Of a DNA stretch of 46,232 nt, positions 1 through 23,317 are shown one piece after another. A program made the position numbers and the translations under genes. The notes under the pieces are model-generated. The model saw nothing but the letters and a program-made list of their open reading frames with translations. It did not search any database and was not told where the DNA came from. The first letter of the stretch is position 1. Every line of letters begins with the position of its first letter. This DNA is from a virus (Duplodnaviria; Heunggongvirae; Uroviricota; Caudoviricetes): the IMG/VR virus record IMGVR_UViG_2778261384_000001. One strand, given 5' to 3'.

Positions 1-1284
1 TTACAGACTTCTGGAAGGTTGCGCAGCTCTTACAACACGCGGTTGATCTTCCGCGGCGTCTTCCAGCGCACTTAAATCACGGTCTTTCACTTCTGGCATT
101 TTCAGCGCAGAGATTAAACCAATCACTGAATATGCCATGATCATAATGGCGATCGGATACCAGGATTCCGTCATGGTGCAGAAAATACCCGCCAGGATAG
201 GACCAAAACCGGAAGCGATAAGACCACCAATTTCTTTAGAAATAGCCATCCGGGTAAAGCGGTTTTTACAGCCGAACATTTCTGCCATGGTAATGTTTTC
301 CAGAGCAAATAATCCCAGCACCGCACAGTTATGAATCACAATCAGTGCAACCATAATGGTGCTCGGGGCATAGCTTTTATCTACAATGATAGAAAGCATT
401 GGCCATGCCAGCACAATCGCGGAGGTATTCATAATAATATACGGGATCCGGCGACCAATTTTATCGGATAACCAACCAAGGAACGGAATGGTCATAAAGC
501 CGAGAATCGAACTAATCATCAATGCATCTGTTGGAATTGCTTTGTTAAACAATAACGTCTGCACTAAATAGCCTGCAAGGAAAGTCTGAATTAACCCGGA
601 GTTACCCGCCTGACCAAAACGCAGCCCTGTTGCCAGCCAGAAGGATTTGCTCTGGAACATGCTACCAGCAGGTGCAGGTTTTGCTGTGGGTTGGTTGCTG
701 TCATTAACCTTCTCAAAGACCGGGCTTTCTTTCAGATTCATACGTAACCAGATAGCAAAGACCATCACGACAACGCTCGCCAGGAACGGTATACGCCATC
801 CCCACGCCAGCAGTTCCTCTTTACTGAGAATGAAGAACATAAAGGCCCAGATTGCCGTTGCGCTCAAGGTTCCGCAGTTAGTTCCCATAGCTACAAATGA
901 GGAGATAATTCCGCGCTTACCTTTTGGTGCATATTCCGCCAGCATCGTACCGGCACCGGAAATTTCCGCACCTGCACCCAACCCCTGAATAATACGCAGC
1001 GTCACCAGCAAGATGGGGGCAAAAACACCAATCTGTGCATAGGTCGGTAACACACCAATTAAGGTGGTACAGATCCCCATCATGGTGATGGTAATAAAGA
1101 GCACTTTTTTACGCCCTATTCTGTCGCCCATTTTGCCGAAAATAAATGCTCCGACAATACGCGCCACATAACCTGCACCGTAGGTTCCCATTGCCAAAAT
1201 TAACGCCATTGCCGTTGATGATTCAGGAAAAAATATTTCATGAAACACTAACGCTGCGCCGAGCGAATATAACTGGAAATCCAT
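1..1284 (-). CDS. ydfJ: MFS transporter YdfJ (ProP/ShiA-like); 427-aa ORF that appears to begin inside the first transmembrane helix, so probably the C-terminal part of a gene split by the prophage
   Basis: ORF track 427 aa; MFS motif GKMGDRIGRKK after first helix; multiple hydrophobic helices; ATG at 1284..1282. Confidence 0.75.
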   Translation of the reverse strand: MDFQLYSLGAALVFHEIFFPESSTAMALILAMGTYGAGYVARIVGAFIFGKMGDRIGRKKVLFITITMMGICTTLIGVLPTYAQIGVFAPILLVTLRIIQGLGAGAEISGAGTMLAEYAPKGKRGIISSFVAMGTNCGTLSATAIWAFMFFILSKEELLAWGWRIPFLASVVVMVFAIWLRMNLKESPVFEKVNDSNQPTAKPAPAGSMFQSKSFWLATGLRFGQAGNSGLIQTFLAGYLVQTLLFNKAIPTDALMISSILGFMTIPFLGWLSDKIGRRIPYIIMNTSAIVLAWPMLSIIVDKSYAPSTIMVALIVIHNCAVLGLFALENITMAEMFGCKNRFTRMAISKEIGGLIASGFGPILAGIFCTMTESWYPIAIMIMAYSVIGLISALKMPEVKDRDLSALEDAAEDQPRVVRAAQPSRSL

Positions 1285-3883: not shown

Positions 3884-6843
3884 TATGCAAGCCTCACAAT
3901 ATAGTTAAATGCGATGTTTTTGACGGTGTTTTCCGCGTTACCAGCAGCGTTAACGGTGATGGTGTGTCCATGTGAACCAATCGCAACGGAGTGCGTATGA
4001 GCACCAATACCGACAGTATGCGCGTGTGCACCTGCAGATGCTGCTGTGCCGGACAGTGAATGGCTATGATTACCATCTGTACTGGTATTCGCTAACCACC
4101 CCGTAGACATACCTACTGAGCCTTGTACACCCCAGGTATTTTGACCTGAGCTTGTATAACCATATTGATAAGTATCTTTAAAAACACTGGGGTTAAATCG
4201 ACGGCCATCTCTATGGCTGTGATTACCAGCTGCATTCGTGCTGCCACTTAAACTATGGGTATGCGCACCAGTGTTATTCGTGGATTTAGTGCCGTAATCA
4301 AACGACGATGTGGTTTTCGTCCCCAAATCCGTACTGGATGCGCTGGCGCTGTGGGTATGCGATTTAATGCCGTCCTGTTCCTGAGACAATACGGCCCGAC
4401 CACTGGCAGGTTTGCCCTTAATCGTCCAGCCACGCATATCAGGGATCACGCCTGACGGATAAGCGGCTGCAAGTTTCGGGTATGCAGATTTGTCAAAAGT
4501 CTGCCCCTGCATCAGGGCATAGCCAGACGGAACGGTATCTGATGGCCACGGGATTGGTGCGCCAGGCGGATAAAACTGCTCTGATGGCGTATAGAGTGAA
4601 TAAACTGTACCGTCCGTTAACCCTTCCGGCTTATTAGCAGAATATGCTGGTGACGTATGAATCGTCACGCTGGCATTACTGGTATAATCCCATTGAATAT
4701 TTACACCAGTCGCATAATTTCCGATTGCAACGTAAATATCGTAAGTATCACCAGATGTATTGACCCAGGCAAAATTTGTAAACCCTGTCGATGTGCGCTG
4801 CCATAAAGCACCAGTAATCCCCTTCGGATTACCATTACCTGCACGTAAAACAAGTTCAGATATACCTGCCTGTTGAGGTGACCCCACGTTAAATCCAGCG
4901 CCACCAATCAACGTAATTGAAACAACAGAACTCGCCTGTGGCATGGTTACCGTTGCTAATTTGAACCAACCAGCACCACCGCTGAATGACATTGTTGTTG
5001 AGTTAAGCGTACCAATATCTTTCGGCGTCAGTGTTATATCCGCTGAAAGCGCCTTACCATTCACCTTACGGGCAGAAGGTACCCGACCATTCGCATTGTC
5101 ATTAGCTGCTTTCACTGCTTTCGGTGTCGCAGCAAGCGTTTCAGATGTGCTGTTGGTTGCACTACTGAGCTGGACAATTCCTTTTTGTGCTGTCGTAGCG
5201 TCCTGTGCGGTGTATTTCCCGTTAGCCAGGTCATACGCGGCCTTAACGGCTTTTGGCGTTGCCGCCTGTGACTCGGAAGTGCTGTTAGTCGCACTGCTGA
5301 GCTGAACTATCCCTTTCTGTGCTGTCGTTGCATCCTGTGCGGTGTATTTCCCGTTAGCCAGGTCATACGCGGCCTTAACGGCTTTTGGCGTTGCCGCCTG
5401 TGACTCGGAAGTGCTGTTGGTCGCACTGCTGAGCTGTACTATCCCCTTTTTCGTCGTGCTCGCATCCTCAAGCGCCACGGCGGATGCAATATCCTCTGCC
5501 CGTTTTGCTGCTGTCTCGGCGCGCGTTGCCGCGGATTCCGCCGTACTTTTGCTCTGTGCTGCCGCTGCCGCACTGCCAGCAGCCTCTGTCGCCTTCGTGG
5601 ATGCCGTCGTGGCGCTGCCCCTCGCTGCTGACGCCTGTCTGGTCGCCTCATCTTTTGAAGCAGACGCAGATGATGCCGATGACGCCGCCGAACTGGCGGA
5701 CGATGCGGCAGCCGTTTTTGAGGATTCTGCGCTGGTTTCCGACGCTTTCGCGTTCGTTTCGGATGTCTTCGCTGCGGAAGCAGACCTCGCTGCTGCGCTG
5801 GCCTGTTCAGTGGCTTCGCCAGCCTTCGTTGTGGCTGTTGAAGCGGATGATGCGGCGCTTTCTGCCGATTTTCCGGCGGCGGTGGCACTGACTGCTGCCT
5901 CCTCTGCCTTAATGGACGCCTCACGGGCCGATGATGCAGCTGCTGTCTCAGAGTCTGCCGCAGCTGAGGCGCTCTGTTCCGCTGCCGTTTCAGAAGACCT
6001 GGCATTCGTCTCGGACGTTTTTGCCGCCTTCACGGAATTTCCTGCCGCCGTTGCCGAGGAGGCTGCACTGCTGGCGCTTGTGGAGGCGTTCGTTTCTGAT
6101 GATTTTGCCGCCTCTTTGGAGGCCGCCGCATCTCTGGCTGAAGTGGCGGCTTCTGACGCTTTCGTCGTCGCAGTGGATGCAGAAGTGGCTGCTGATTTTT
6201 GTGACGCTGCAGCATTCGTTTCTGACGTTTTCGCCGCACCGGCACTGGTGGCCGCCGCGCTTTTTGAGGACTCTGCAGCGGCAGCACTTTTTGATGCTTC
6301 AGTGGCCTTTGTTGATGCCGTTCCTGCGCTGGAAGACGCCTCCTGAGCCGAAGTCGCGGCCTGTCCGGCTGACGTGCTGGCTGCACGCGCTGAGCCTGCA
6401 GCATCAGTCGCATGGGTTGCCGCCTCACGGGCAGATGTGCCGGCATCACTGGCTGACTTCTTCGCGGCTGCCGTGTTCTGTGCCACCGCGGACGCGTTAC
6501 GCGCCACCTCTTCCACCATCAGTTCAAAACGGCGCAGAGCCTCCGGACGGGCATCATCCTCCGTCATGGCACCGAGAAAATCATTCAGCGTACCGGGTCG
6601 GGAATCTTCATACACGGTGATGGTCCCGGCATGTGACGGCGGGAATCCTTCCACCAACAGAATAACGCTGTACTGACCGTACTCAACGTCCATGCTGTAA
6701 CGCCCGGCTTCATCCGGATTTTCTGAGGCCAGCGTGTTCACCACCACCGTGGTGCTGTTACGTTTTGCTTTCAGCTGGATTGTGCAGTTCTGTACCGGTT
6801 TTCCTGTGCCGTCTTTCAGTACACCTGAAATCTTTACTGCCAT
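3883..6843 (-). CDS. stf: side tail fibre protein (Stf-like, about 986 aa) with Ala/Ser-rich shaft, 44-aa tandem repeats and His-rich C-terminal domain
   Basis: N-terminus [19 protein letters not shown]... lambda Stf-like; ATG at 6843 (ORF-track start 6849 is GTG). Confidence 0.85.
5070..5465. repeat. in-frame tandem direct repeats, 132-bp period (two near-identical copies 5201-5464 plus a diverged copy upstream) inside stf
   Basis: tcctgtgcggtgtatttcccgttagccaggtcatacgcggcc... recurs at 5201 and 5333; encodes repeated [42 protein letters not shown]. Confidence 0.8.
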
Positions 6844-16300: not shown

Positions 16301-16448
16301 GACGCTCCATAAAACGCTGCATACGGGCAGAAGACCGTTCTGCATCGCTGGCTGCACCATTCAGAAGGTTTTTGATACGGGGAATTTCATTTTTAAACTC
16401 TGCCGCATCAATCCCCAAATCAATGACCAGGTTGGCTATCTGGTCCAT
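13383..16448 (-). CDS. H: tail tape measure protein H (about 1021 aa)
   Basis: Long coiled-coil-rich protein; start MDQIANLVIDLGIDAAEF resembles lambda H N-terminus; ORF-track start 16478 is TTG, ATG at 16448. Confidence 0.9.
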   Translation of the reverse strand: MDQIANLVIDLGIDAAEFKNEIPRIKNLLNGAASDAERSSARMQRFMERQTQAARQTTQAASSAATAASVHAQTVEKNAQAHERMAREVEKTRQRMEALSQKMREEQAQAMALAEAQDKAAAAFYRQIDSVKQASAGLQELQRIQQQIRQARNSGGIGQQDYLALISEVTAKTRVLTQAEEEATRQKVAFIRQLKEQATRQNLSSSELLRAKAAQLGVSSAAEVYIRKMEQAGKATHSLGLKSAAARQEIGVLIGELARGNLGALRGSGITLANRAGWIDTLMSPKGMMLGGVIGGIAAAVYGLGKAWYDGQKEGEEFNRQLSLTGHYAGVTAGQLWTLSRAISGNGITQHAAAGALAQVVGSGAFRGNDIGMVARAAAQMERSVGQSVSDTINQFKRLKDDPVNAAKALDNELHFLTATQLEQIRVLGEQGRSSDAARIAMSALAEETGRRTADIDNNLNALGSTLKYLSDLWSRFWDAAMNIGREDSLDEQIAALQEKVSRAKRLPWTASSSQVEYDQQRLNDLQEKKRQKDLQDAKEQAERNYQEQQKRRNAENAALNRMNETEAARHQREIARINSMQYADQAVRDAAIQRENERYEKALASGKKKTRETRNDEATRLLLQYSQQQAQVEGQIAAARQSAGIATEKMTEAHKQLLALQQRISDLDGKKLTADEKSVLARKDELIQALTLLDVKQQELQKQTALNDLKKKTIQLTSQLAEEERAQRQQHDLDIATVGMGDQQRQRYQVQLSLRQKYQQQLEQLRRDSEQKGTYNTDDYRKAEQALTESLNRQLNENRRYWQQLEVVQGNWKNGVLRAFQDFTVDADNTAGTAEQVFSSAFSNMGNGLATFVTTGKLNFKSFTSSVLSDMAKILAQATMMKSIKGIGSVLGFDLSSLSLNANGGIYQSADLSRYSGTVVNRPTFFAFAKGAGVMGEAGPEAILPLRRGADGKLGVVADIGGSGMAMFAPQYNIEINNDGTNGQIGPAALKVVYDLGKKAAADFMQQQARDGGRLSGAYR

Positions 16449-16749
16449 AACGCACACCTCCGGAAATACCTTCCCCAAGATGCATCAGTTCTTCGTCCGT
16501 TCGCTCCGGTATCCCGTTCTCTTCCGGTAAAAGGCTGAAATCAGCCACCGCAGCATCACTGCTGCCGGACACCATTCTCACGATCAATGCCTTCAGCGAG
16601 GCAAACTGCGCATCCATCCACACATCACTGAAGCTCTGCATCCGGAAATAATCGCCCCACTCACCAAGCTCAGTGGCCGACATTTCCGACAGCATCCGCC
16701 GCCAGTCTGCCCGCCTGAACTCCCGGGCAAGCCGCATGACAAACTGCAT
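16420..16749 (-). CDS. T: tail assembly chaperone T segment, expected to be expressed as a G-T fusion by -1 ribosomal frameshift
   Basis: ORF in -1 frame relative to G, open from 16782 through the G stop; position between G and H. Confidence 0.7.
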   Translation of the reverse strand: MQFVMRLAREFRRADWRRMLSEMSATELGEWGDYFRMQSFSDVWMDAQFASLKALIVRMVSGSSDAAVADFSLLPEENGIPERTDEELMHLGEGISGGVRYGPDSQPGH

Positions 16750-16757
16750 TTCCCGCG

Positions 16758-17147
16758 TCAGGACTTTTCCGGCGTCAGCACCTCATGCTCCAAATCCCCG
16801 GCATTCTCAATGGCTCCCATACCGCTCAGCGACAGAACCATCTCCGCCCCCGTTCCCAGGGCATCATACGACCATGTTGTAATAACGGATGCGCAAAGCG
16901 TCTCAACATCCTGAGACTGTTCCGCATTCCACAGTGAGCGGGAAACCAGCCAGGCATTGATATCCATCCCCATCCGCAGAAAAGCAATCTGTCGTTCAGC
17001 CTCCGGCAGTTCTCCCTCTTCGGCATCAAACTTTGCCGTTCGCTGCTGAACAAACGCCAGATATTCAATTCTCTGCAGCCCGGACAGCTCACTGAGCACC
17101 ACGGACTGCTTTTCATAATTAAACGTGCCCTGTTTCAGAAACATCAT
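16758..17147 (-). CDS. G: tail assembly chaperone G
   Basis: MMFLKQGTFNYEKQSVVLSELSGLQRIEYLAF... resembles lambda G; ATG 17147 with GGTGGAG RBS (ORF-track start 17186 is TTG). Confidence 0.85.
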   Translation of the reverse strand: MMFLKQGTFNYEKQSVVLSELSGLQRIEYLAFVQQRTAKFDAEEGELPEAERQIAFLRMGMDINAWLVSRSLWNAEQSQDVETLCASVITTWSYDALGTGAEMVLSLSGMGAIENAGDLEHEVLTPEKS

Positions 17148-18360: not shown

Positions 18361-18947
18361 CGGGTCAGCCATAACCTCAGTTGTTGTTTCAGTGCATACC
18401 CCAGCTGTTTCGGCATTTCCGCAGCAATGATGTGGTCGCGGGCATCTTCAAATGCCTGTGTCAGCGGTCCGGACAGCGGGATTTTCACCACATCAATGGG
18501 GTAACGATTTTTGCCATCAATACGTCGCATCACATGCCAGCGACCATTCGCCAGTTGCTGAATAAACGCATCCCGGAAAAGATATTTACCCACCTTCAGC
18601 ACACTGCCACGGTACTGCAGTTTTCCACCACGCCGGGCCAGTCTGACCCGGGCTGTCCCCAGCTTAATGGCGGGCAGATTGCCCCGGTTAACGCGGATCC
18701 TGGCCGTCATTTTTCCTGACGGACTGGCTTTAAACACCCGGACACGCTGACGTACCAGTTTCAGGGGGATCCCTTTCACCTGGTTATCTCCCGCAACGGT
18801 ATTCCCGGCAACCTGCCGGGTGGCAACCGAGACCGCTTTCTGTGCCACACGGTTTATCGCCCATGCGCTGGCCTGTGGCACCATACGGGTATCAAGGCTG
18901 TTCAGATTGCGGATGGCATTCTCAAGCCCCTTCATCCCACACCTCAT
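18357..18947 (-). CDS. Z: tail completion protein Z-like
   Basis: About 192-196 aa, immediately upstream of U as in lambda; alternative ATG at 18935. Confidence 0.75.
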   Translation of the reverse strand: MRCGMKGLENAIRNLNSLDTRMVPQASAWAINRVAQKAVSVATRQVAGNTVAGDNQVKGIPLKLVRQRVRVFKASPSGKMTARIRVNRGNLPAIKLGTARVRLARRGGKLQYRGSVLKVGKYLFRDAFIQQLANGRWHVMRRIDGKNRYPIDVVKIPLSGPLTQAFEDARDHIIAAEMPKQLGYALKQQLRLWLTR

Positions 18948-19222
18948 TACTCAATAAAGATCATTGGCTTACCGTTAAAACGTTCATGCCGTGTGACCGT
19001 CCATTGTTGTCCGTCATAAACAACGCGATCCCCGCGCCGTGGGCGGTATCCCGAAGAAAACACCACCAGAGAGACCGCAGGTCCGGACAGAGCATTCAGC
19101 TCTGCCAGTGTTTCTCCCGGGATCACAGTCATATCGACATCATTAATCGAGGCTGTCTTTCCCATCTTTCTGACCGTGATCGCATCCATACGCGCTGCCA
19201 GCCGGGAAAAGGGATCAGACAT
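18947..19222 (-). CDS. head-tail joining/adaptor protein (FII position), 91 aa
   Basis: Position between head genes and Z; size typical of head-tail joining proteins. Confidence 0.55.
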   Translation of the reverse strand: MSDPFSRLAARMDAITVRKMGKTASINDVDMTVIPGETLAELNALSGPAVSLVVFSSGYRPRRGDRVVYDGQQWTVTRHERFNGKPMIFIE

Positions 19223-19538
19223 TGAGTTTTACCGGCACTTCTTCTGCACTGGTTCCGGCATCTGCCCAGACAACCCCGACCAGCGGATCAGAGCCGCTGT
19301 TAGTCAGCTGAACTTTTCCTGACTTCAGATAAACCTTCTTACCCGTTTTCATGTCATCCGTTTTCAGCTTAGGCAGCATAAACACACCTTCGGTTATGCC
19401 GTCGCCTGTTTCTCCCTGTGGAATATCGGTCAGCGCCACCGCAAAAACATCACCCACCTGCACCAGATCTCCGCTGCTGATGGCTGCACTTGCAACAATC
19501 GCCACCGTTTTTCCTTCTTCTACAAAATTCTTTGCCAT
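19215..19538 (-). CDS. small head-associated protein (FI/D position; possibly decoration/cement type), 107 aa
   Basis: ATG 19538 with GGAGA RBS; located directly downstream of the capsid gene. Confidence 0.5.
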   Translation of the reverse strand: MAKNFVEEGKTVAIVASAAISSGDLVQVGDVFAVALTDIPQGETGDGITEGVFMLPKLKTDDMKTGKKVYLKSGKVQLTNSGSDPLVGVVWADAGTSAEEVPVKLNV

Positions 19539-19581
19539 AACTGTCTCCGCACAGCCCCGTTCAGGGGCTGATTTCAGGTAC

Positions 19582-19601
19582 AAAAAAAGCCCTTACGGGC
19601 C
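19582..19601 (-). terminator. weak terminator-like hairpin just downstream of the capsid gene
   Basis: Stem gccc/gggc with ttac loop followed on minus strand by a run of 7 T. Confidence 0.35.
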
Positions 19602-19624: not shown

Positions 19625-21583
19625 TTACGCCGTACATTTCACCAGGCCGCGGTGATCAACTGGCGCAACACCAGCGTCAATACGCACTTTCGTTGTCACG
19701 CCATCCACACTGAAGCCCTCCATCTGATCAATATATGGCGTATCCACACCGTTGAGATAAGCCACTTCAATCGTATCGGAGCCTTTGGACGCAGCCAGGT
19801 AGAAGGTGGTCTGGCTGTTATCATCAAGACGAGGCTCTGCAATAACGGTCGCAAAATCTTTCACCGGGTTAATAATACCGGCGTTAATGTCAGCCCCCTT
19901 GACACTTGAGGAGCGAATGACCTGGTTAGCAACAGACTCCATCGCCGTCGGTACCAGTACGAACGCAGGACGAATATTCAGATGACGCTCACCCTCTTTC
20001 TGAACGCGCATCAACTGGCGGGCTTTATCCAGCGATGCCACGTCCATTGCCGCGCTCTCCAGTACGTTTGCATGTTTCGCTTTATCGAACAGACTTACAT
20101 TATCTGTGGAGATTTTCGGGTTAGACGTCAGAATGGCATAAACCAGATCGGCAATAGTGGATTTCGCCGCACGGCCCAGCTTCATCGGGACATCGGTCAG
20201 CATATTCAGATCATCATTGATAATGGCCTGACGGGTGATACTGAACAGCTCGCCATAGGTCGCCAGTGCAATAGTGGCCTGTTTATCTCCGGTGGTGACG
20301 TATTTATATTCTGCCCCTTCACGCACCTGACGCAGAGCACTGAAGCCCCCCATACCCACACGATGGGCAATTTTAAAATCAGACAACTGACCTTTCCGCG
20401 TCCACTGTTCATAGGTTTCAGGGGCATCTTCCCAGCCCTGCAGAATGGCTTTGTTCGCAACATCCAGCAGAATATTACCGAAGTCAGACGTACTGTGTAT
20501 GAACGCCGCACCGACCATCTGCATCGGGTTATAACTGGAAACACCAATACCACGTTCAGTCAGTGACATACGGGCATATTCACGCAGGGTCATCCCGTTG
20601 TAGACATTATCACGTTCAGTTTTTTCAAACCCGGCGCGCGCCATCAGCGCCTGGCGGATCCCGTCCCCCACAAAATTACCGTTACCGGCATAAATATGAG
20701 CCGGGGTATTTTTATTGGATGGCGTGGACTCGCGCCCCATCTCGTTCAACAGCTTTTCGCGGGCCTGCTCCAGCGAACATTCAGGATCGGCAAGACACTG
20801 AGCCTGCAACGACTGATAACGCCCGCCAAACATGGCAAACAGATCATTAATACCGTTTACACGCGCTTTTTGCTCTGCCAGGACCTGCGCACGGATGCTG
20901 TTTTCATCCACCACGGGTGCTGCTGCCTGCACTGGCGTCCGGGAGGCTGCAGGTCCATCATCCTGTACGCGTGGAGCACTGTTGCGTGGCGGAGTAATCA
21001 TATTTCGAATGGATTCCGGCATCTTTTTAAATTCCTCTGTACGTTTTGACTGAATACATGCCATTGCCTTAACGGCTGGTGTCACCTGATCAGCAAATCC
21101 CTGTGCCAGACATTCGGCACCGGACATCCAGGTCTCATCCGCCAGCATGGCAGCAATTTCATCGGTGGTTTTCCCGGTTTTCTGTGCATAAGCGGGTAAC
21201 AGAACCGCCTCAACTCTATCGAGCAGGTCGGCATAGGTGCGCATGTCCTCCGCATCACCGCCCGTAAAGCCAAATGGTTTATGAATCATCATGAAGGTGT
21301 TTTCCGGCATAATGACCGGGTTTCCTACCATCGCAATGACCGACGCCATTGACGCCGCCACACCGTCGACATAAACGGTAATGGACGCACCATGTGTTTT
21401 CAGCGCATTAAAAATGGCGATGCCTTCAAAGACATCGCCACCCGGTGAATTAATATGGAGATTAATGTGGGTGATATCGCCCAGTGCATTCAGATCACTG
21501 ATAAACTGCTTCGCTGTAACACCCCAGAAACCAATCTCGTCATAAATATAAATATCCGCGTCACTCTGGTGACCAGCCTGCAT
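19625..21583 (-). CDS. fused ClpP-like prohead protease / scaffold-like linker / major capsid protein (about 652 aa)
   Basis: N-terminal ClpP motifs INSPGGDVFEGIAIFN, GVAASMASVIAMVG (Ser), MMIHKPFG (His); central helical region; C-terminal capsid-like domain; ATG 21583 just after portal stop. Confidence 0.8.
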   Translation of the reverse strand: MQAGHQSDADIYIYDEIGFWGVTAKQFISDLNALGDITHINLHINSPGGDVFEGIAIFNALKTHGASITVYVDGVAASMASVIAMVGNPVIMPENTFMMIHKPFGFTGGDAEDMRTYADLLDRVEAVLLPAYAQKTGKTTDEIAAMLADETWMSGAECLAQGFADQVTPAVKAMACIQSKRTEEFKKMPESIRNMITPPRNSAPRVQDDGPAASRTPVQAAAPVVDENSIRAQVLAEQKARVNGINDLFAMFGGRYQSLQAQCLADPECSLEQAREKLLNEMGRESTPSNKNTPAHIYAGNGNFVGDGIRQALMARAGFEKTERDNVYNGMTLREYARMSLTERGIGVSSYNPMQMVGAAFIHSTSDFGNILLDVANKAILQGWEDAPETYEQWTRKGQLSDFKIAHRVGMGGFSALRQVREGAEYKYVTTGDKQATIALATYGELFSITRQAIINDDLNMLTDVPMKLGRAAKSTIADLVYAILTSNPKISTDNVSLFDKAKHANVLESAAMDVASLDKARQLMRVQKEGERHLNIRPAFVLVPTAMESVANQVIRSSSVKGADINAGIINPVKDFATVIAEPRLDDNSQTTFYLAASKGSDTIEVAYLNGVDTPYIDQMEGFSVDGVTTKVRIDAGVAPVDHRGLVKCTA

Positions 21584-21596
21584 CCTGAACCAGGAA

Positions 21597-23105
21597 TTAT
21601 TCTTCGGACTGGTCGTCGGTGTGCTGCGGCTCCTGTCGTTTCGTTGCGGCACTACTGCCTCCTTTATCACTGGCCGGATCGGTATCAAATACCAGATCCA
21701 GATTGCGGTTTTCATCAATTTCGGCCTTGCGCCGACGTTTGACATCATCCGGATTACGACCACCAGCACGTACCCAGTCTGATTCTGTCGCCGCTCCACC
21801 ACGAATCTGGATTTTCCAGGCCTCAGCCTCCTTAACAGGGTCAATCCACGGCATCACTGGTCCGGAATACACCGCGGTATACAGTGAAGAACGGTCAAGA
21901 TCGCGGGGTAGCCTGATAACACCGGATGCCACAGCCTGTTTCAGCCATGCACGATACATCGGGCGGGTGACGGCACCAATAAACCAGTCCTGCAGGATCA
22001 GGTAGCCATCAGTGGATTCAACCAGCTCCTGACGCTGGGCGCTGTAAGTGCCGTTATAGTTGCGCGCTGTACTGGAAAAACTCAGACGACTGCCCGCCGC
22101 CACGGCACGCAACTGACCATTACGAAAAGTTTCAAGGTTAGGATTGGGGCGATCCGACTTCACCATTCCGATTTCTTCGCCGGGTTTCAGATCGTCGTAA
22201 ATAATGCCCGGCTGAATGGTAAGCTCACGTTCATTCTCCTTTCTGCCATTACCATCCGGTTCATAGCTCTGCCCGTCGCCTTTCCGGATGTACATCCCCA
22301 GAGCAGCGGCGATCCTTGCTGCAGTCAGCTCAGAATCTTCATATTCTTTCAGGGCACTGAGGCGGATCAGCACACCGGACAACAAAGACGTCCCGCGCAT
22401 CTGGTGCAGACGGCGAACAAATTTAAGATGCAGCATTCGCTCTGCATCCACTTCTTTGGTTTCCATCTGCCGTCCGGATACGGGACGGCTTTTATACACC
22501 AGATATTTTTCGGGACGCCCCCAGTCATCAACAAACACGCCCTGATTCAGCCTGTTGCTCTCATCACTGGTCATGGGAATAAAGTCCGGCTCGAGCGCCT
22601 CCAGCCAGAAATGAACACCGGCAGAAGGCGCCAGGCTGTTTATGCGCCCGGAAACCATCTGGGCAAACACCTCACCATCGCGCAGCCAGGTACGAAGCAT
22701 CAGACGTTCCAGCATCGGACGGGTAAACTGCCCGGTGACTTCCGGGCTGACAGACCATTCACTCCATCGGGTGCGAATCTCCGCAGCCAGGTCACGGGCA
22801 ATGGCCCCATTGCGTAATACCGGATGTGGCTCGACAATAATCCCGTTTTTCCCCACCACCCGTTCTTCCAGCTTGTCAAATACACCAATAACCAGATCGT
22901 GGTTGTTATCAAGGTAACGGGCCTGCTCACGTAACGACACGGCCCCGTACTGGCTTAACTGGTCGGCAGTTCGGTTCTCCCGTCGGGCTTTGTGTGTCCG
23001 CGTCGTTTTTACGGCCTCATAAGCCTGGATCACCGCACGGGAACGCAGCCTTGCCGCTTTCCATCCTGGTGAAAAAACGCCAATCACATCATCAAGAATT
23101 GCCAT
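21597..23105 (-). CDS. portal protein (about 502 aa)
   Basis: Size and position between W-like/terminase and the protease-capsid gene; ATG 23105 overlaps W stop (TGATG). Confidence 0.85.
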   Translation of the reverse strand: MAILDDVIGVFSPGWKAARLRSRAVIQAYEAVKTTRTHKARRENRTADQLSQYGAVSLREQARYLDNNHDLVIGVFDKLEERVVGKNGIIVEPHPVLRNGAIARDLAAEIRTRWSEWSVSPEVTGQFTRPMLERLMLRTWLRDGEVFAQMVSGRINSLAPSAGVHFWLEALEPDFIPMTSDESNRLNQGVFVDDWGRPEKYLVYKSRPVSGRQMETKEVDAERMLHLKFVRRLHQMRGTSLLSGVLIRLSALKEYEDSELTAARIAAALGMYIRKGDGQSYEPDGNGRKENERELTIQPGIIYDDLKPGEEIGMVKSDRPNPNLETFRNGQLRAVAAGSRLSFSSTARNYNGTYSAQRQELVESTDGYLILQDWFIGAVTRPMYRAWLKQAVASGVIRLPRDLDRSSLYTAVYSGPVMPWIDPVKEAEAWKIQIRGGAATESDWVRAGGRNPDDVKRRRKAEIDENRNLDLVFDTDPASDKGGSSAATKRQEPQHTDDQSEE

Positions 23106-23317
23106 CAGAACCTCGCCAGCCGGTACCCGGGATGCCCCCGTCGTCGTGTAATCAGAGCCGCAAGGCGGCGCTCCCACTCCTGCCGTCCCTGCCGGATCTC
23201 AGATAAGTTTTCCATGGTCATCTGCTGACCATTAAAGGTGACGGATTTTCCGTCCAGCACCGCCATTTCAGCTTCCGTATAACGCTGAATCATGGCTTCG
23301 ATATCATTCTGGTTCAT
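23105..23317 (-). CDS. head-tail joining protein W-like (70 aa)
   Basis: Small protein after terminase large subunit; GGAGG RBS 6 nt upstream of ATG 23317; start overlaps terminase stop. Confidence 0.7.
   Translation of the reverse strand: MNQNDIEAMIQRYTEAEMAVLDGKSVTFNGQQMTMENLSEIRQGRQEWERRLAALITRRRGHPGYRLARF

What the first reader, a model, noticed from the sequence alone, without database searches (positions are those of the whole stretch)
19625..21583. Single ORF fusing a ClpP-like protease, scaffold-like linker and major capsid domain
One uninterrupted 652-codon frame. The N-terminus has ClpP-type serine protease motifs (INSPGGDVFEGIAIFN; GVAASMASVIAMVG; MMIHKPFG). The C-terminal 300 aa look like an HK97-fold capsid protein. 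This differs from the lambda C/Nu3/D/E arrangement although the tail genes are lambda-like, indicating a mosaic head module with self-processing capsid maturation.
Basis: partly seen in the sequence, partly recalled or inferred. Interest (0 to 1): 0.45.

Follow-up and report, generated by a model that had tools for sequence, protein, structure and literature searches.

The report
Known protease–scaffold–capsid fusion gene
This is the already-described "tripartite" head gene of Gifsy-2/mEp460-type lambdoid prophages, in which a ClpP-like protease, a scaffold-like middle part and the major capsid protein share one reading frame; it is ordinary, except that it carries a very strongly conserved internal ribosome-binding site and start codon suggesting it also makes a second, protease-less product.

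Summary
It lies on the minus strand and most likely starts 69 nt further upstream: GTG 21652 with an AAGGAGG Shine-Dalgarno (SD), giving 675 aa rather than 652.

The protein matches NCBIfam NF045540, [quoted passage not shown], end to end (980 bits, cut-off 475). Its DNA is 100% identical to genes that PGAP names this way in many E. coli chromosomes. It is 99.5% identical to phage mEp460 gp05 and 70% identical, with conserved gene order, to the Gifsy-2 "tripartite capsid gene" (Effantin 2010).

The frame is intact in all 8 phage orthologs and 75 of 79 genome loci examined. More than 150 clusters at 50% identity share the fused length. The fusion is therefore not an artefact and not new.

One added result may be new. 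Met188, just after the protease domain, is ATG in 75/75 diverse orthologs. It is always preceded by AGGA, whose G is the most conserved synonymous site in the gene. It also sits in the least-structured mRNA stretch. A sister fusion family with an unrelated N-terminal domain has canonical SD+ATG-Pro at the same boundary. This points to a Nu3-like nested scaffold–capsid product (P about 0.6, untested).

The parts
19625..21652 (-). Complete CDS of the protease-scaffold-capsid fusion (675 aa plus stop) from the most likely start, GTG 21652-21650.
   Evidence: ORF list and translation; PGAP annotates the identical gene as 675 aa; start-site comparison in 8 orthologs; NF045540 full-length match.
21658..21664 (-). 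Shine-Dalgarno AAGGAGG, 5 nt upstream of the GTG start, lying inside the end of the portal gene.
   Evidence: The same motif precedes the equivalent GTG in 1720a-02, Kp4865-4 and mEp213. Among the 75 orthologs the best upstream start has an SD of at least 5 nt in 48.
21083..21559 (-). ClpP-related head-maturation protease domain (residues 9-167 in 652-aa numbering). Candidate catalytic residues: Ser78 (21350-21352), His101 (21281-21283) and Glu150 (21134-21136, at the position of the ClpP Asp).
   Evidence: NF045542 at 215.5 bits (cut-off 120) and PF00574 at E=8.9e-36; residue-by-residue alignment to ClpP 1y7o; Ser78, His101 and Glu150 invariant in 75/75 orthologs.
21033..21037 (-). Internal Shine-Dalgarno-like GAGGA, formed by codons 183-184 (Glu-Glu), 10 nt upstream of the Met188 ATG.
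   Evidence: AGGA present in 75/75 orthologs although codon 183 encodes Glu, Gln or Lys. Its third-position G (74/75) is the most conserved synonymous-capable site of 607 columns apart from one Trp-dominated column. It is the only SD-like tetranucleotide among the 8 of 2171 positions that are at least 97% conserved.
21020..21022 (-). In-frame ATG of Met188, the candidate internal start of a 465-aa (50.6 kDa) scaffold-capsid product.
   Evidence: ATG in 75/75 orthologs and Met-Pro invariant with variable flanks. The -30..+20 RNA window is at the 95th percentile of least structure in 24 lineages, P=9e-6. An equivalent SD+ATG-Pro is present in the sister family.
20903..20992 (-). Hypervariable Pro/Ala/Gln-rich spacer (residues 198-227) with indels between orthologs.
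   Evidence: 16-44% identity to orthologs, versus 61-92% in the protease and capsid domains.
20714..20902 (-). Conserved helical middle domain (residues 228-290), a candidate Nu3-type scaffold domain.
   Evidence: Three helices at residues 227-281 with pLDDT 62-82 in an otherwise poor AF2 model. The middle fragment hits phrog_53 (lambda C family) at E=0.006 in the Nu3 part, and Nu3 hits phrog_133 at E=2e-6. The HMM-vs-Nu3 score is reached by 3 of 2000 shuffles, but hhalign is not significant. No Pfam family matches.
20525..20713 (-). Conserved junction (residues 291-353, TPSNK..HIYAGNGN..DNxYNGMTLRE). It contains the still unknown maturation cleavage site and/or the capsid N-arm.
   Evidence: 46-85% identity to the orthologs with several invariant motifs. 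The position of cleavage was not determined here.
19628..20524 (-). Major capsid protein domain, Mu gpT / Phage_capsid_4 type (residues 354-652).
   Evidence: PF25209 at E=9.6e-55 and PF10124 at E=3.7e-8; profile hits to solved capsid proteins 8rkc/8rkx (E=6e-8) and 9jod (E=9e-6).
19578..19601 (-). Intrinsic-terminator-like hairpin (GGCCC-GTAA-GGGCT) plus T-run, 24 nt after the stop codon.
   Evidence: scan and sequence. A terminator is annotated at the same place in mEp460 and mEp213.
19215..19538 (-). Downstream 107-aa cement/decoration protein gene (Phage_cement_2, formerly DUF2190), partner of the capsid.
   Evidence: PF09956 at E=2.8e-20. It is syntenic in Gifsy-2, F10, Providencia and 1720a-02 phages. 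No BLASTP similarity to lambda gpD.
21597..23108 (-). Upstream lambda-family portal gene, whose 3' end overlaps the fusion gene's start.
   Evidence: PF05136 Phage_portal_2 at E=7.7e-82; annotation of the identical prophage.

Best explanation
The ORF is the tripartite head gene of a Gifsy-2/mEp460-type lambdoid prophage, here sitting at the E. coli Qin/ydfJ locus. One frame encodes three parts: a ClpP-fold serine protease (Ser78/His101, with Glu150 in place of the ClpP Asp); a flexible spacer plus a helical Nu3-like scaffold domain; and a Mu gpT-type HK97-fold major capsid protein.

Inferred mechanism, by orthology with Gifsy-2: the capsid domains assemble on the lambda-type portal into a T=7 procapsid with the N-terminal parts inside. 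The tethered protease then removes everything N-terminal of the mature capsid protein, the shell expands during packaging, and trimers of the downstream cement protein stabilise it.

Added inference from this work: the gene most likely makes two nested products. One is the full-length 73.5-kDa protease-scaffold-capsid protein from the GTG at 21652. The other is a 50.6-kDa scaffold-capsid protein initiated at the conserved internal GAGGA-N10-ATG (Met188). On this view the protease is delivered as a capsid-tethered subpopulation, much as lambda makes C and Nu3 from one frame.

What is shown: the domain identities, the family membership, the orthology and synteny, and the nucleotide-level conservation of the internal SD/ATG. 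What is inferred: cleavage, T number, decoration, and actual use of the internal start.
For: Identity and family:
- NF045540 match at 979.7 bits (cut-off 475) over profile positions 2-651 of 652; phrog_133 full length.
- 100% identical DNA with that PGAP product name in E. coli chromosomes, and at least 80% coverage in 1988 of 5426 complete genomes.
- 99.5% aa identity to mEp460, 70% to Gifsy-2, 56% to Pseudomonas F10, all at 100% coverage, with the same gene order.
- The frame is intact in all 8 phage orthologs and 75 of 79 genome loci. More than 150 representatives at 50% identity, most 640-750 aa and matching end to end, score E<=1e-97.

Internal start:
- ATG in 75/75 and AGGA in 75/75 orthologs. 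The third-position G is kept across Glu/Gln/Lys codons; naive P=4e-10 over 23 lineages. It is the most conserved synonymous-capable site of 607, apart from one Trp-dominated column.
- It is the only one of 10 conserved in-frame start codons that always has an SD-like motif.
- The mRNA window around it is at the 95th percentile of least structure, compared with the 84th for the annotated start.
- The sister family, with an unrelated N-terminal domain, has SD+ATG at the same boundary in 25 of 42 loci, against 0.017 expected.
- Homology between the two families begins at residues ~186-197.
Against: - No experiment was done here. Cleavage, the cleavage site, T number and decoration are all taken from orthology with Gifsy-2, and the primary paper could not be read.
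- The internal SD in this family is short (AGGA in 55 of 75) and its 9-10 nt spacer is longer than optimal.
- SD-like sequences inside genes can also act as pause sites.
- Met-Pro and the acidic residues upstream could be conserved for protein-level reasons.
- 17 of 42 sister-family loci lacked a strong SD+ATG by my criterion.
- The AF2 model was too poor (pLDDT 35) to confirm the folds structurally.
- Similarity of the middle domain to Nu3 is only marginal.
Confidence: 0.6

Rival explanations
1. It is the same known tripartite gene, but only the full-length polypeptide is made. Every capsid subunit starts with its own protease and scaffold (1:1:1 stoichiometry). The conserved AGGA-N9/10-ATG is then not an initiation site: it could be a translational pause element that lets the protease domain fold, or a by-product of some other constraint.
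For: The fused frame is universally intact. Annotation and the curated family treat it as one protein. The SD is only 4 nt in most members, with a long 9-10 nt spacer. By my own estimate (not a tool result), 415 copies of a ~38-kDa N-terminal part would fill only about 40% of a T=7 prohead, so a 1:1 design is physically possible.
Against: A pause site does not need an invariant ATG at a fixed distance. The site lies in the least-structured RNA of the gene in 24 of 24 lineages. Sister-family members carry canonical AAGGAGG-N5-ATG or AGGAG-N6-ATG at the same boundary, 35-fold above background.
Confidence: 0.35
2. The fusion is an artefact: a sequencing or assembly error removed a stop codon or frameshift between separate protease and capsid genes.
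For: None found. A few database entries are chimeric or truncated (P0006, P0033 and others), and the VT1-Sakai copy is interrupted by IS629. This shows that damaged copies do exist.
Against: The DNA is identical in many independently finished E. coli chromosomes. The frame is intact in 8 phage genomes down to 56% identity and in 75 genomes from four bacterial orders or families. A curated HMM exists for the fused architecture, and more than 150 diverse representatives have the fused length.
Confidence: 0.01
3. The N-terminal ClpP-fold domain is catalytically dead and serves only as an extra scaffold; another protease does the processing.
For: The third triad residue of ClpP (Asp) is replaced by Glu150. 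No other head protease gene was looked for outside the head module.
Against: Ser78, His101 and Glu150 are invariant in 75/75 orthologs, within conserved GxAASMAS and MMIHKP motifs. The domain scores above the cut-off of the 'head maturation protease, ClpP-related' model NF045542. No separate protease gene lies between the portal and tail genes.
Confidence: 0.03

Closest known systems
Salmonella phage Gifsy-2 tripartite capsid gene (NC_010393 22471-24561; Effantin et al. 2010, Virology 402:355, PMID 20427067)
   Same: 70% aa identity over 100% of the protein. Same three-part layout and same neighbours: gpA-type terminase, small adaptor, lambda-type portal, fusion, cement protein, PF13856 protein, then lambda Z/U/V/G/T/H tail genes. 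It also has the Met-Pro internal ATG with AGGAG upstream.
   Different: The hosts differ (Salmonella versus E. coli). The spacer is unrelated in sequence (20% identity) and the annotated start is 33 rather than 23 codons upstream. Structural data exist only for Gifsy-2.
Phage mEp460 gp05 / phage cdtI gp05, and the PGAP 'ClpP-like prohead protease/major capsid protein fusion protein' (NCBIfam NF045540)
   Same: 99.2-99.5% aa identity to the phage proteins, and 100% DNA identity to many E. coli prophage copies. This is the same gene.
   Different: Nothing substantive differs. GenBank annotations disagree on the name (protease, Nu3, major head protein, even 'terminase protein') and on the start codon.
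Lambda C / Nu3 nested genes followed by D and E
   Same: The protease is followed in frame by a scaffold. Nu3 is made from an internal in-frame start in C (annotation). There is marginal reciprocal profile similarity between Nu3 and the middle domain. The portal, terminase and tail genes belong to lambda families.
   Different: Lambda's protease is family S49, not ClpP S14. Its capsid protein E is a separate gene of another family. The decoration protein D is unrelated in sequence to the PF09956 cement protein. Nu3's start lies inside the protease fold, whereas Met188 lies after it.
HK97 gp4 protease plus gp5 (delta domain-capsid)
   Same: The scaffold function is fused to the N-terminus of an HK97-fold capsid protein and removed by a phage protease. 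The protease gene lies immediately upstream (gp4 ends at 4025, gp5 starts at 4028). The proposed internal-start product would be the direct analogue of gp5.
   Different: In HK97 the protease is a separate gene of a different family. There is no detectable sequence similarity of the delta domain or of gp5 to this protein. HK97 cross-links its capsid instead of using a cement protein (established knowledge).
Sister fusion family NF045541 / phrog_4523 (e.g. Stenotrophomonas phage S1 gp8, 'major head and protease protein')
   Same: It has a homologous scaffold-capsid part from residue ~186-197 onward (398 bits against NF045541, below that family's cut-off of 525) and the same SD+ATG-Pro at the domain boundary.
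   Different: Its N-terminal domain is unrelated, is not ClpP, and has no Pfam match.
Protease-capsid fusions of Arthrobacter phage clusters AM/AU/AN and Rhodococcus phage RRH1
   Same: Independent reports that capsid and maturation protease can be one gene (PMC5513430).
   Different: These are different phage groups. Sequence relationship to this family was not tested here.

Membership tests
NCBIfam NF045540 (ClpP-like prohead protease/major capsid protein fusion protein) | Whole-protein score above the curated cut-off, with end-to-end coverage of the profile | tested here: met
   979.7 bits against a cut-off of 475; residues 9-651 align to profile positions 2-651 of 652.
NCBIfam NF045540 (ClpP-like prohead protease/major capsid protein fusion protein) | N-terminal ClpP-related head maturation protease domain | tested here: met
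   NF045542 at 215.5 bits (cut-off 120); PF00574 at E=8.9e-36.
NCBIfam NF045540 (ClpP-like prohead protease/major capsid protein fusion protein) | C-terminal major capsid domain in the same uninterrupted frame, also in relatives | tested here: met
   PF25209 at E=9.6e-55. The frame is intact in 8 phage orthologs and 75 of 79 genome loci.
Gifsy-2-type tripartite capsid gene / head module | Orthology and conserved gene order (terminase gpA type, adaptor, lambda-type portal, fusion, cement protein) | tested here: met
   70% identity at 100% coverage; synteny.
Gifsy-2-type tripartite capsid gene / head module | Proteolytic removal of the protease and central domains, T=7 shell, trimeric decoration at the 3-fold axes | not testable with these tools
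   Known for Gifsy-2 only through citing papers. It needs virion proteomics or cryo-EM.
ClpP / MEROPS S14 peptidase | Ser-His-Asp catalytic triad at the ClpP positions | tested here: inconclusive
   The Ser (GVAAS78M) and His (MIH101KP) align with the ClpP residues. The Asp position is occupied by an invariant Glu150. This is chemically plausible but not the canonical triad.
ClpP / MEROPS S14 peptidase | Tetradecameric barrel working with an AAA+ partner | not testable with these tools
   No reliable structure model was obtained. This is not expected for a capsid-tethered domain.
HK97-fold major capsid proteins | Membership of a capsid family with solved HK97-fold structures | tested here: met
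   Profile hits to the capsid shells 8rkc/8rkx (Mu GpT domain, E=6e-8) and 9jod (E=9e-6); PF10124 Mu-like_gpT. That these structures have the HK97 fold is established knowledge.
HK97-fold major capsid proteins | Predicted 3D structure showing the A and P domains, E-loop and N-arm | tested here: inconclusive
   AF2 with a 22-sequence alignment gave mean pLDDT 35, below 50 throughout the capsid part. No fold search was run on it.
Lambda C/Nu3/D/E head-gene set | S49 protease, separate E-family capsid gene, gpD-family decoration protein | tested here: not met
   The protease is CLP_protease, not S49. The capsid is Phage_capsid_4 and is fused. The decoration gene is PF09956 with no BLASTP similarity to gpD.
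Lambda C/Nu3/D/E head-gene set | Scaffold made from an internal in-frame start downstream of the protease (the Nu3 principle) | tested here: inconclusive
   There is strong comparative evidence for a conserved internal SD+ATG at Met188, but no expression data.

The most novel reading that the evidence does not exclude
The 'fusion' is really a nested two-product gene. A deeply conserved internal ribosome-binding site and ATG (Met188; window 21020-21037, minus strand) yields a protease-less scaffold-capsid protein, an HK97 gp5 analogue that may build most of the shell. The full-length protein would then be a capsid-tethered vehicle that brings the protease inside. The same SD+ATG-Pro sits at the domain boundary in a sister family with an unrelated N-terminal domain. 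This suggests that such fusions arose when a protease gene read through into a downstream scaffold-capsid gene that kept its own start. It also suggests that nested expression is a general rule for tripartite head genes. I found no description of this in the searchable literature, but the primary Gifsy-2 paper could not be read.
Probability: 0.6. Interest if true: 0.45.

Novelty: already known. Interest (0 to 1): 0.28.

Why it matters
As a gene, it matters little. It is a curated, widespread prophage head gene whose Salmonella ortholog was studied by cryo-EM in 2010.

It has practical relevance for annotation. The same gene is variously labelled 'protease', 'Nu3', 'major head protein', 'ATP-dependent Clp protease' and even 'terminase protein'. 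Start codons are called inconsistently, and one capsid-prediction pipeline failed to obtain an HK97-fold capsid protein for Gifsy-2 (PMC8814770).

The internal start, if real, would explain how a gene that hard-wires protease, scaffold and capsid at 1:1:1 could still control protease dosage. It would link the lambda (C/Nu3) and HK97 (gp4/gp5) solutions in one locus, and it gives a simple mutational test.

Tried and rejected
- Structure prediction. The full-length protein was folded with a 22-sequence alignment (75-99% identity) and gave mean pLDDT 35. I judged it unusable and ran no fold search.
- HK97 delta domain and HK97 gp5 compared with this protein by hhalign: no similarity.
- Cement protein compared with lambda gpD by BLASTP: nothing.
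- Middle domain against Pfam at E<=10: only noise.
- Middle domain against Nu3 by hhalign: E=0.23, and 44 of 300 shuffles reach the score. This is not significant on its own, so the Nu3 relationship rests on marginal PHROG cross-hits.
- Reading Effantin et al. 2010: not held, and no PMC id could be found in four citing papers.
- Literature searches for an internal start, or for other descriptions of the triple fusion: nothing relevant. The CBASS preprint concerns T1-like protease-scaffold fusions with a separate capsid gene.
- Other conserved in-frame Met codons (79, 85, 92, 98, 99, 114, 331, 525) as internal starts: rejected, because they carry SD-like motifs in only 0-21% of orthologs.
- A Nu3-equivalent start inside the protease fold (Met114): no SD, and not conserved in Gifsy-2 or Fels-1.
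Full report
**Observation.** The plus-strand translation of 19625-21583 is full of stops, while the minus-strand translation is open for 652 codons from ATG 21583. The maximal frame runs up to 21844. The three quoted ClpP-like motifs are all present.

Chance is excluded by the HMM scores. Pfam CLP_protease matches residues 23-168 (E=8.9e-36) and Phage_capsid_4 matches 354-649 (E=9.6e-55).

**Start codon.** Twenty-three codons upstream, GTG 21652 follows AAGGAGG with a 5-nt spacer. The same SD+GTG occurs in phages 1720a-02, Kp4865-4 and mEp213, and ATG starts preceded by GGAGG, GGAGAG or a weaker purine-rich stretch lie 32-33 codons upstream in F10, Fels-1 and Gifsy-2. PGAP annotates the 100%-identical gene of E. 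coli D3 as 675 aa from that GTG. The gene is therefore best given as 19625..21652 (-), overlapping the portal gene's last 56 nt.

**What it is.** The protein matches NCBIfam NF045540, [quoted passage not shown], at 979.7 bits (cut-off 475) over essentially the whole profile. It also matches the domain model NF045542, "head maturation protease, ClpP-related", and PHROG 133 over its full length.

- The DNA is 100% identical to genes with that PGAP name in many finished E. coli chromosomes. 1988 of 5426 complete E. coli genomes carry a copy covering at least 80%.
- At protein level it is 99.5% identical to phage mEp460 gp05 and 99.2% to phage cdtI.
- It is about 77% identical to a set of Stx-converting phages, 72% to Fels-1, 70% to Gifsy-2, 64% to a Providencia phage and 56% to Pseudomonas phages F10 and MD8, always over 100% of its length.
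- The window itself is a complete lambdoid prophage at the Qin/ydfJ locus. An integrase lies at one end, a truncated ydfJ at the other, and Qin-type genes (ydfK, pinQ, tfaQ, essD, rrrQ) in the identical prophage of strain D3.

**Prior knowledge.** Two papers in the library cite Effantin et al. [quoted passage not shown] Another paper lists the capsid as T=7.

From my own memory of the abstract, not verifiable here, the paper describes an N-terminal ClpP-like protease, a ~200-residue central domain with a possible scaffolding role, and a C-terminal capsid protein. The paper itself is not held. Protease-capsid fusions have also been reported in Arthrobacter and Rhodococcus phages.

- The frame is uninterrupted in all eight phage orthologs aligned. 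It is also uninterrupted in 75 of 79 loci recovered from species-representative genomes of Enterobacterales, Pseudomonas, Shewanella and Pasteurellaceae; the other four are N-terminally short or cut by a contig end.
- An exhaustive HMMER search of 1.84 billion representatives returned at least 150 clusters at 50% identity. Most were 640-750 aa long and matched end to end at 35-59% identity. The list was still at E about 1e-97 where it was cut.
- Damaged copies do exist: one interrupted by IS629 in VT1-Sakai, and some chimeric database entries. They are exceptions.

**Anatomy (652-aa numbering).**
- Residues 1-170 are the protease. In the alignment to S. pneumoniae ClpP (1y7o), Ser78 and His101 coincide with the catalytic Ser and His. 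The catalytic Asp position is Glu150. All three are invariant in 75/75 orthologs.
- Residues 171-197 are a short conserved segment.
- Residues 198-227 are a Pro/Ala/Gln-rich spacer with indels, only 16-44% identical between orthologs.
- Residues 228-290 are a conserved domain. It is the only part that AlphaFold modelled with moderate confidence: three helices at pLDDT 62-82.
- Residues 291-353 are a well-conserved junction.
- Residues 354-652 are the capsid domain. A profile of this part hits solved capsid shells annotated "Mu GpT domain-containing protein" (8rkc/8rkx, E=6e-8) and a "major capsid protein" (9jod, E=9e-6).

The full-length AlphaFold model was poor (mean pLDDT 35) because the alignment was shallow, so I did not use it for fold searches.

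**Is the middle part scaffold-like?** It has no Pfam family and no similarity to the HK97 delta domain. Against lambda Nu3 the evidence is mixed but suggestive.
- hhalign aligns 47 columns at 36% identity but is not significant: E=0.23, and 44 of 300 shuffles reach the score.
- An HMM of the middle domain scores Nu3 higher than 1997 of 2000 shuffles.
- Nu3 hits this protein's PHROG (phrog_133) at E=2e-6, although part of that alignment covers the last helices of the protease fold.
- The middle fragment alone hits lambda C's PHROG (phrog_53) at E=0.006, within the Nu3 part of that profile.

I treat "Nu3-type scaffold domain" as moderately supported.

**Context.** Terminase (GpA ATPase and nuclease domains) and portal (Phage_portal_2) are lambda families. 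The tail genes Z, U, V (with a Big_2 domain), G, T and the tape measure are lambda families. The gene after the fusion is a 107-aa Phage_cement_2 (DUF2190) protein with no BLASTP similarity to lambda gpD. A terminator-like hairpin follows the fusion gene, as annotated in mEp460 and mEp213.

The order TerS-TerL-adaptor-portal-fusion-cement is the same in Gifsy-2, F10, the Providencia phage and 1720a-02.

**A feature not in the finding: a conserved internal start signal.** In the eight orthologs the only conserved in-frame ATG with an SD-like motif was Met188, immediately after the protease domain (GAG GAA TTT AAA AAG ATG; window 21037-21020, minus strand). I tested this on the 75 diverse genome orthologs.

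- Met188 is ATG in 75/75 and Pro189 is invariant, while residues 186, 187, 190 and 191 vary freely.
- AGGA lies 9-10 nt upstream in 75/75.
- The codon supplying its "AG" encodes Glu (62), Gln (7) or Lys (5), always as the G-ending codon. The single exception is a shifted GGAGAC.
- Of 607 codon columns able to vary synonymously, this third position is the most conserved apart from one Trp-dominated column: 74/75, against a gene mean of 0.53 and a 95th percentile of 0.80.
- Multiplying each lineage's own G-ending usage over 23 clusters (below 80% identity) gives 4e-10. These include Pasteurellaceae, where only 17-30% of such codons end in G. This figure ignores residual phylogenetic dependence.
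- Of 10 conserved in-frame start codons, only Met188 always has an SD-like motif; the others have one in 0-21% of orthologs.
- Of 2171 tetranucleotide positions only 8 are at least 97% conserved, and this AGGA is the only SD-like one.
- The -30..+20 RNA window at Met188 is among the least structured of the gene in all 24 lineage representatives. Its mean percentile is 0.95 (Wilcoxon P=9e-6), with -1.4 kcal/mol against a median of -10.6 in the window. The annotated upstream start, used as a positive control, averages 0.84.

The sister fusion family (NF045541 / phrog_4523) gives independent support. Its homology to this protein begins at residues ~186-197, and its N-terminal domain is unrelated with no Pfam match.

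- Stenotrophomonas phage S1 has cAGGAGcacaccATG (Met207-Pro), and Ralstonia phage YO178_1 has AGGAaaacaccATG (Met244-Pro). In S1 this is the only in-frame ATG between residues 100 and 340; in YO178_1 it is one of two and the only one with an SD-like motif. Both lie in weakly structured RNA.
- Among 42 divergent viral-contig relatives, 25 have an ATG with an SD of at least 5 nt (spacer 4-10) within 60 codons of the expected boundary, usually ATG-Pro. Examples are AAGGAGGcatttATG and cAGGAGGgtaatATG.
- The same criterion gives 3 hits in 21,749 codons elsewhere in those ORFs, or 0.017 expected per window.
- The amino acids encoded across the SD differ (KE, QE, EE, TE, LE, PE), which points to selection on the nucleotides.

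**Interpretation.** The most economical reading is a functional internal initiation site. It would produce a 465-aa (50.6 kDa) scaffold-capsid protein nested in the 675-aa (73.5 kDa) protease-scaffold-capsid protein. This is the principle of lambda C/Nu3, and the shorter product would be architecturally equivalent to HK97 gp5. In HK97 the protease gene ends 3 nt before gp5 starts. A plausible origin is therefore read-through of a protease gene into a scaffold-capsid gene that kept its own ribosome-binding site.

The caveats are real. The SD in this particular family is short, with a long spacer. Internal SD-like sequences may cause pausing rather than initiation. There are no expression data. 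I could not read the primary Gifsy-2 paper, so I cannot exclude that precursor species or an internal start were already described. The searchable library returned nothing. I put the probability of real internal initiation at about 0.6.

**Mechanism, with status of each step.**
- Shown here: domain identities, the catalytic Ser and His, family membership, orthology and synteny with Gifsy-2, and the conserved upstream and internal start signals.
- Inferred from Gifsy-2 and from general knowledge of HK97-fold phages: co-assembly on the portal into a T=7 procapsid with the N-terminal parts inside; proteolytic removal of protease, spacer and scaffold; expansion; and binding of the cement protein.
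- Unknown: the cleavage site(s), somewhere between residues ~285 and ~355, which would give a 32-39 kDa mature protein; and the ratio of the two putative products.

**Verdict.** The finding is correct, well interpreted and already known, so its interest as a discovery is low. The conserved internal SD/ATG is the one element that might be new, and it is cheaply testable.

Noticed in passing
window 21597-21652 (minus strand): The likely GTG start and its AAGGAGG lie inside the last 56 nt of the portal gene in another frame. Public annotations of the same gene disagree on the start: 652 aa in mEp460 GenBank, 675 aa in PGAP, and 8 to 33 extra codons in the other phages' annotations.
   Followed up: yes
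window 16749-16790 (minus strand), junction of the gpG-like (16758-17147) and gpT-like (16420-16749) genes: The tail-chaperone G/T pair is present (Pfam Phage_TAC_2 and Phage_tail_T), but lambda's canonical GGGAAAG slippery heptamer is absent at the junction. The G frame ends ...ACG CCG GAA AAG TCC TGA. Where and how the expected -1 frameshift occurs was not worked out.
   Followed up: partly
window 1-1284 (-) and 44937-46232 (+): The window is a whole prophage. A truncated MFS transporter gene (ydfJ) flanks the tail-fibre end, and a tyrosine integrase with an Arm DNA-binding domain sits at the other end. It is an intact relative of the defective Qin prophage of E. coli K-12.
   Followed up: partly
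window 18947-19222 (minus strand): The 91-aa protein after the cement gene belongs to Pfam PF13856 ('Gifsy-2', described as 'ATP-binding sugar transporter from pro-phage'). PGAP names it 'DNA breaking-rejoining protein', and mEp460 RefSeq calls it 'minor tail protein'. Its position between head and tail genes suggests a head-tail connector, so these names look like misnomers.
   Followed up: no
window 42122-44593 (+) and 36060-37394 (+): In the early region there is an 823-aa protein with only a C-terminal Rv2179c-like 3'-5' exonuclease domain (residues 642-813) and a long unassigned N-terminus. There is also a 444-aa FRG-domain protein. Strain D3, whose fusion gene is identical, carries a DUF4209 gene in its early region; whether it occupies the same position was not checked.
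   Followed up: no
phage VT1-Sakai AP000400 23248-26507 (hit H117) and database proteins P0006, P0033, P0061, P0079: One Stx1 phage copy of the gene is split by IS629. Several database 'proteins' join this gene to terminase, portal or tail domains; these are probably frameshifted or chimeric gene calls.
   Followed up: no
L046, L048, L051, L087 (genome loci): In four genome relatives the match starts only at query residue 81-141 and the frame from the match start is 518-569 codons long. These may be N-terminally damaged copies or copies with a different N-terminus. They were excluded from the 75-sequence analysis, as was L082, which is cut by a contig end.
   Followed up: no
window 21134-21136 (Glu150 codon): The residue aligned with ClpP's catalytic Asp is an invariant Glu in all 75 orthologs. 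This suggests a Ser-His-Glu arrangement in this phage branch of the ClpP fold.
   Followed up: partly
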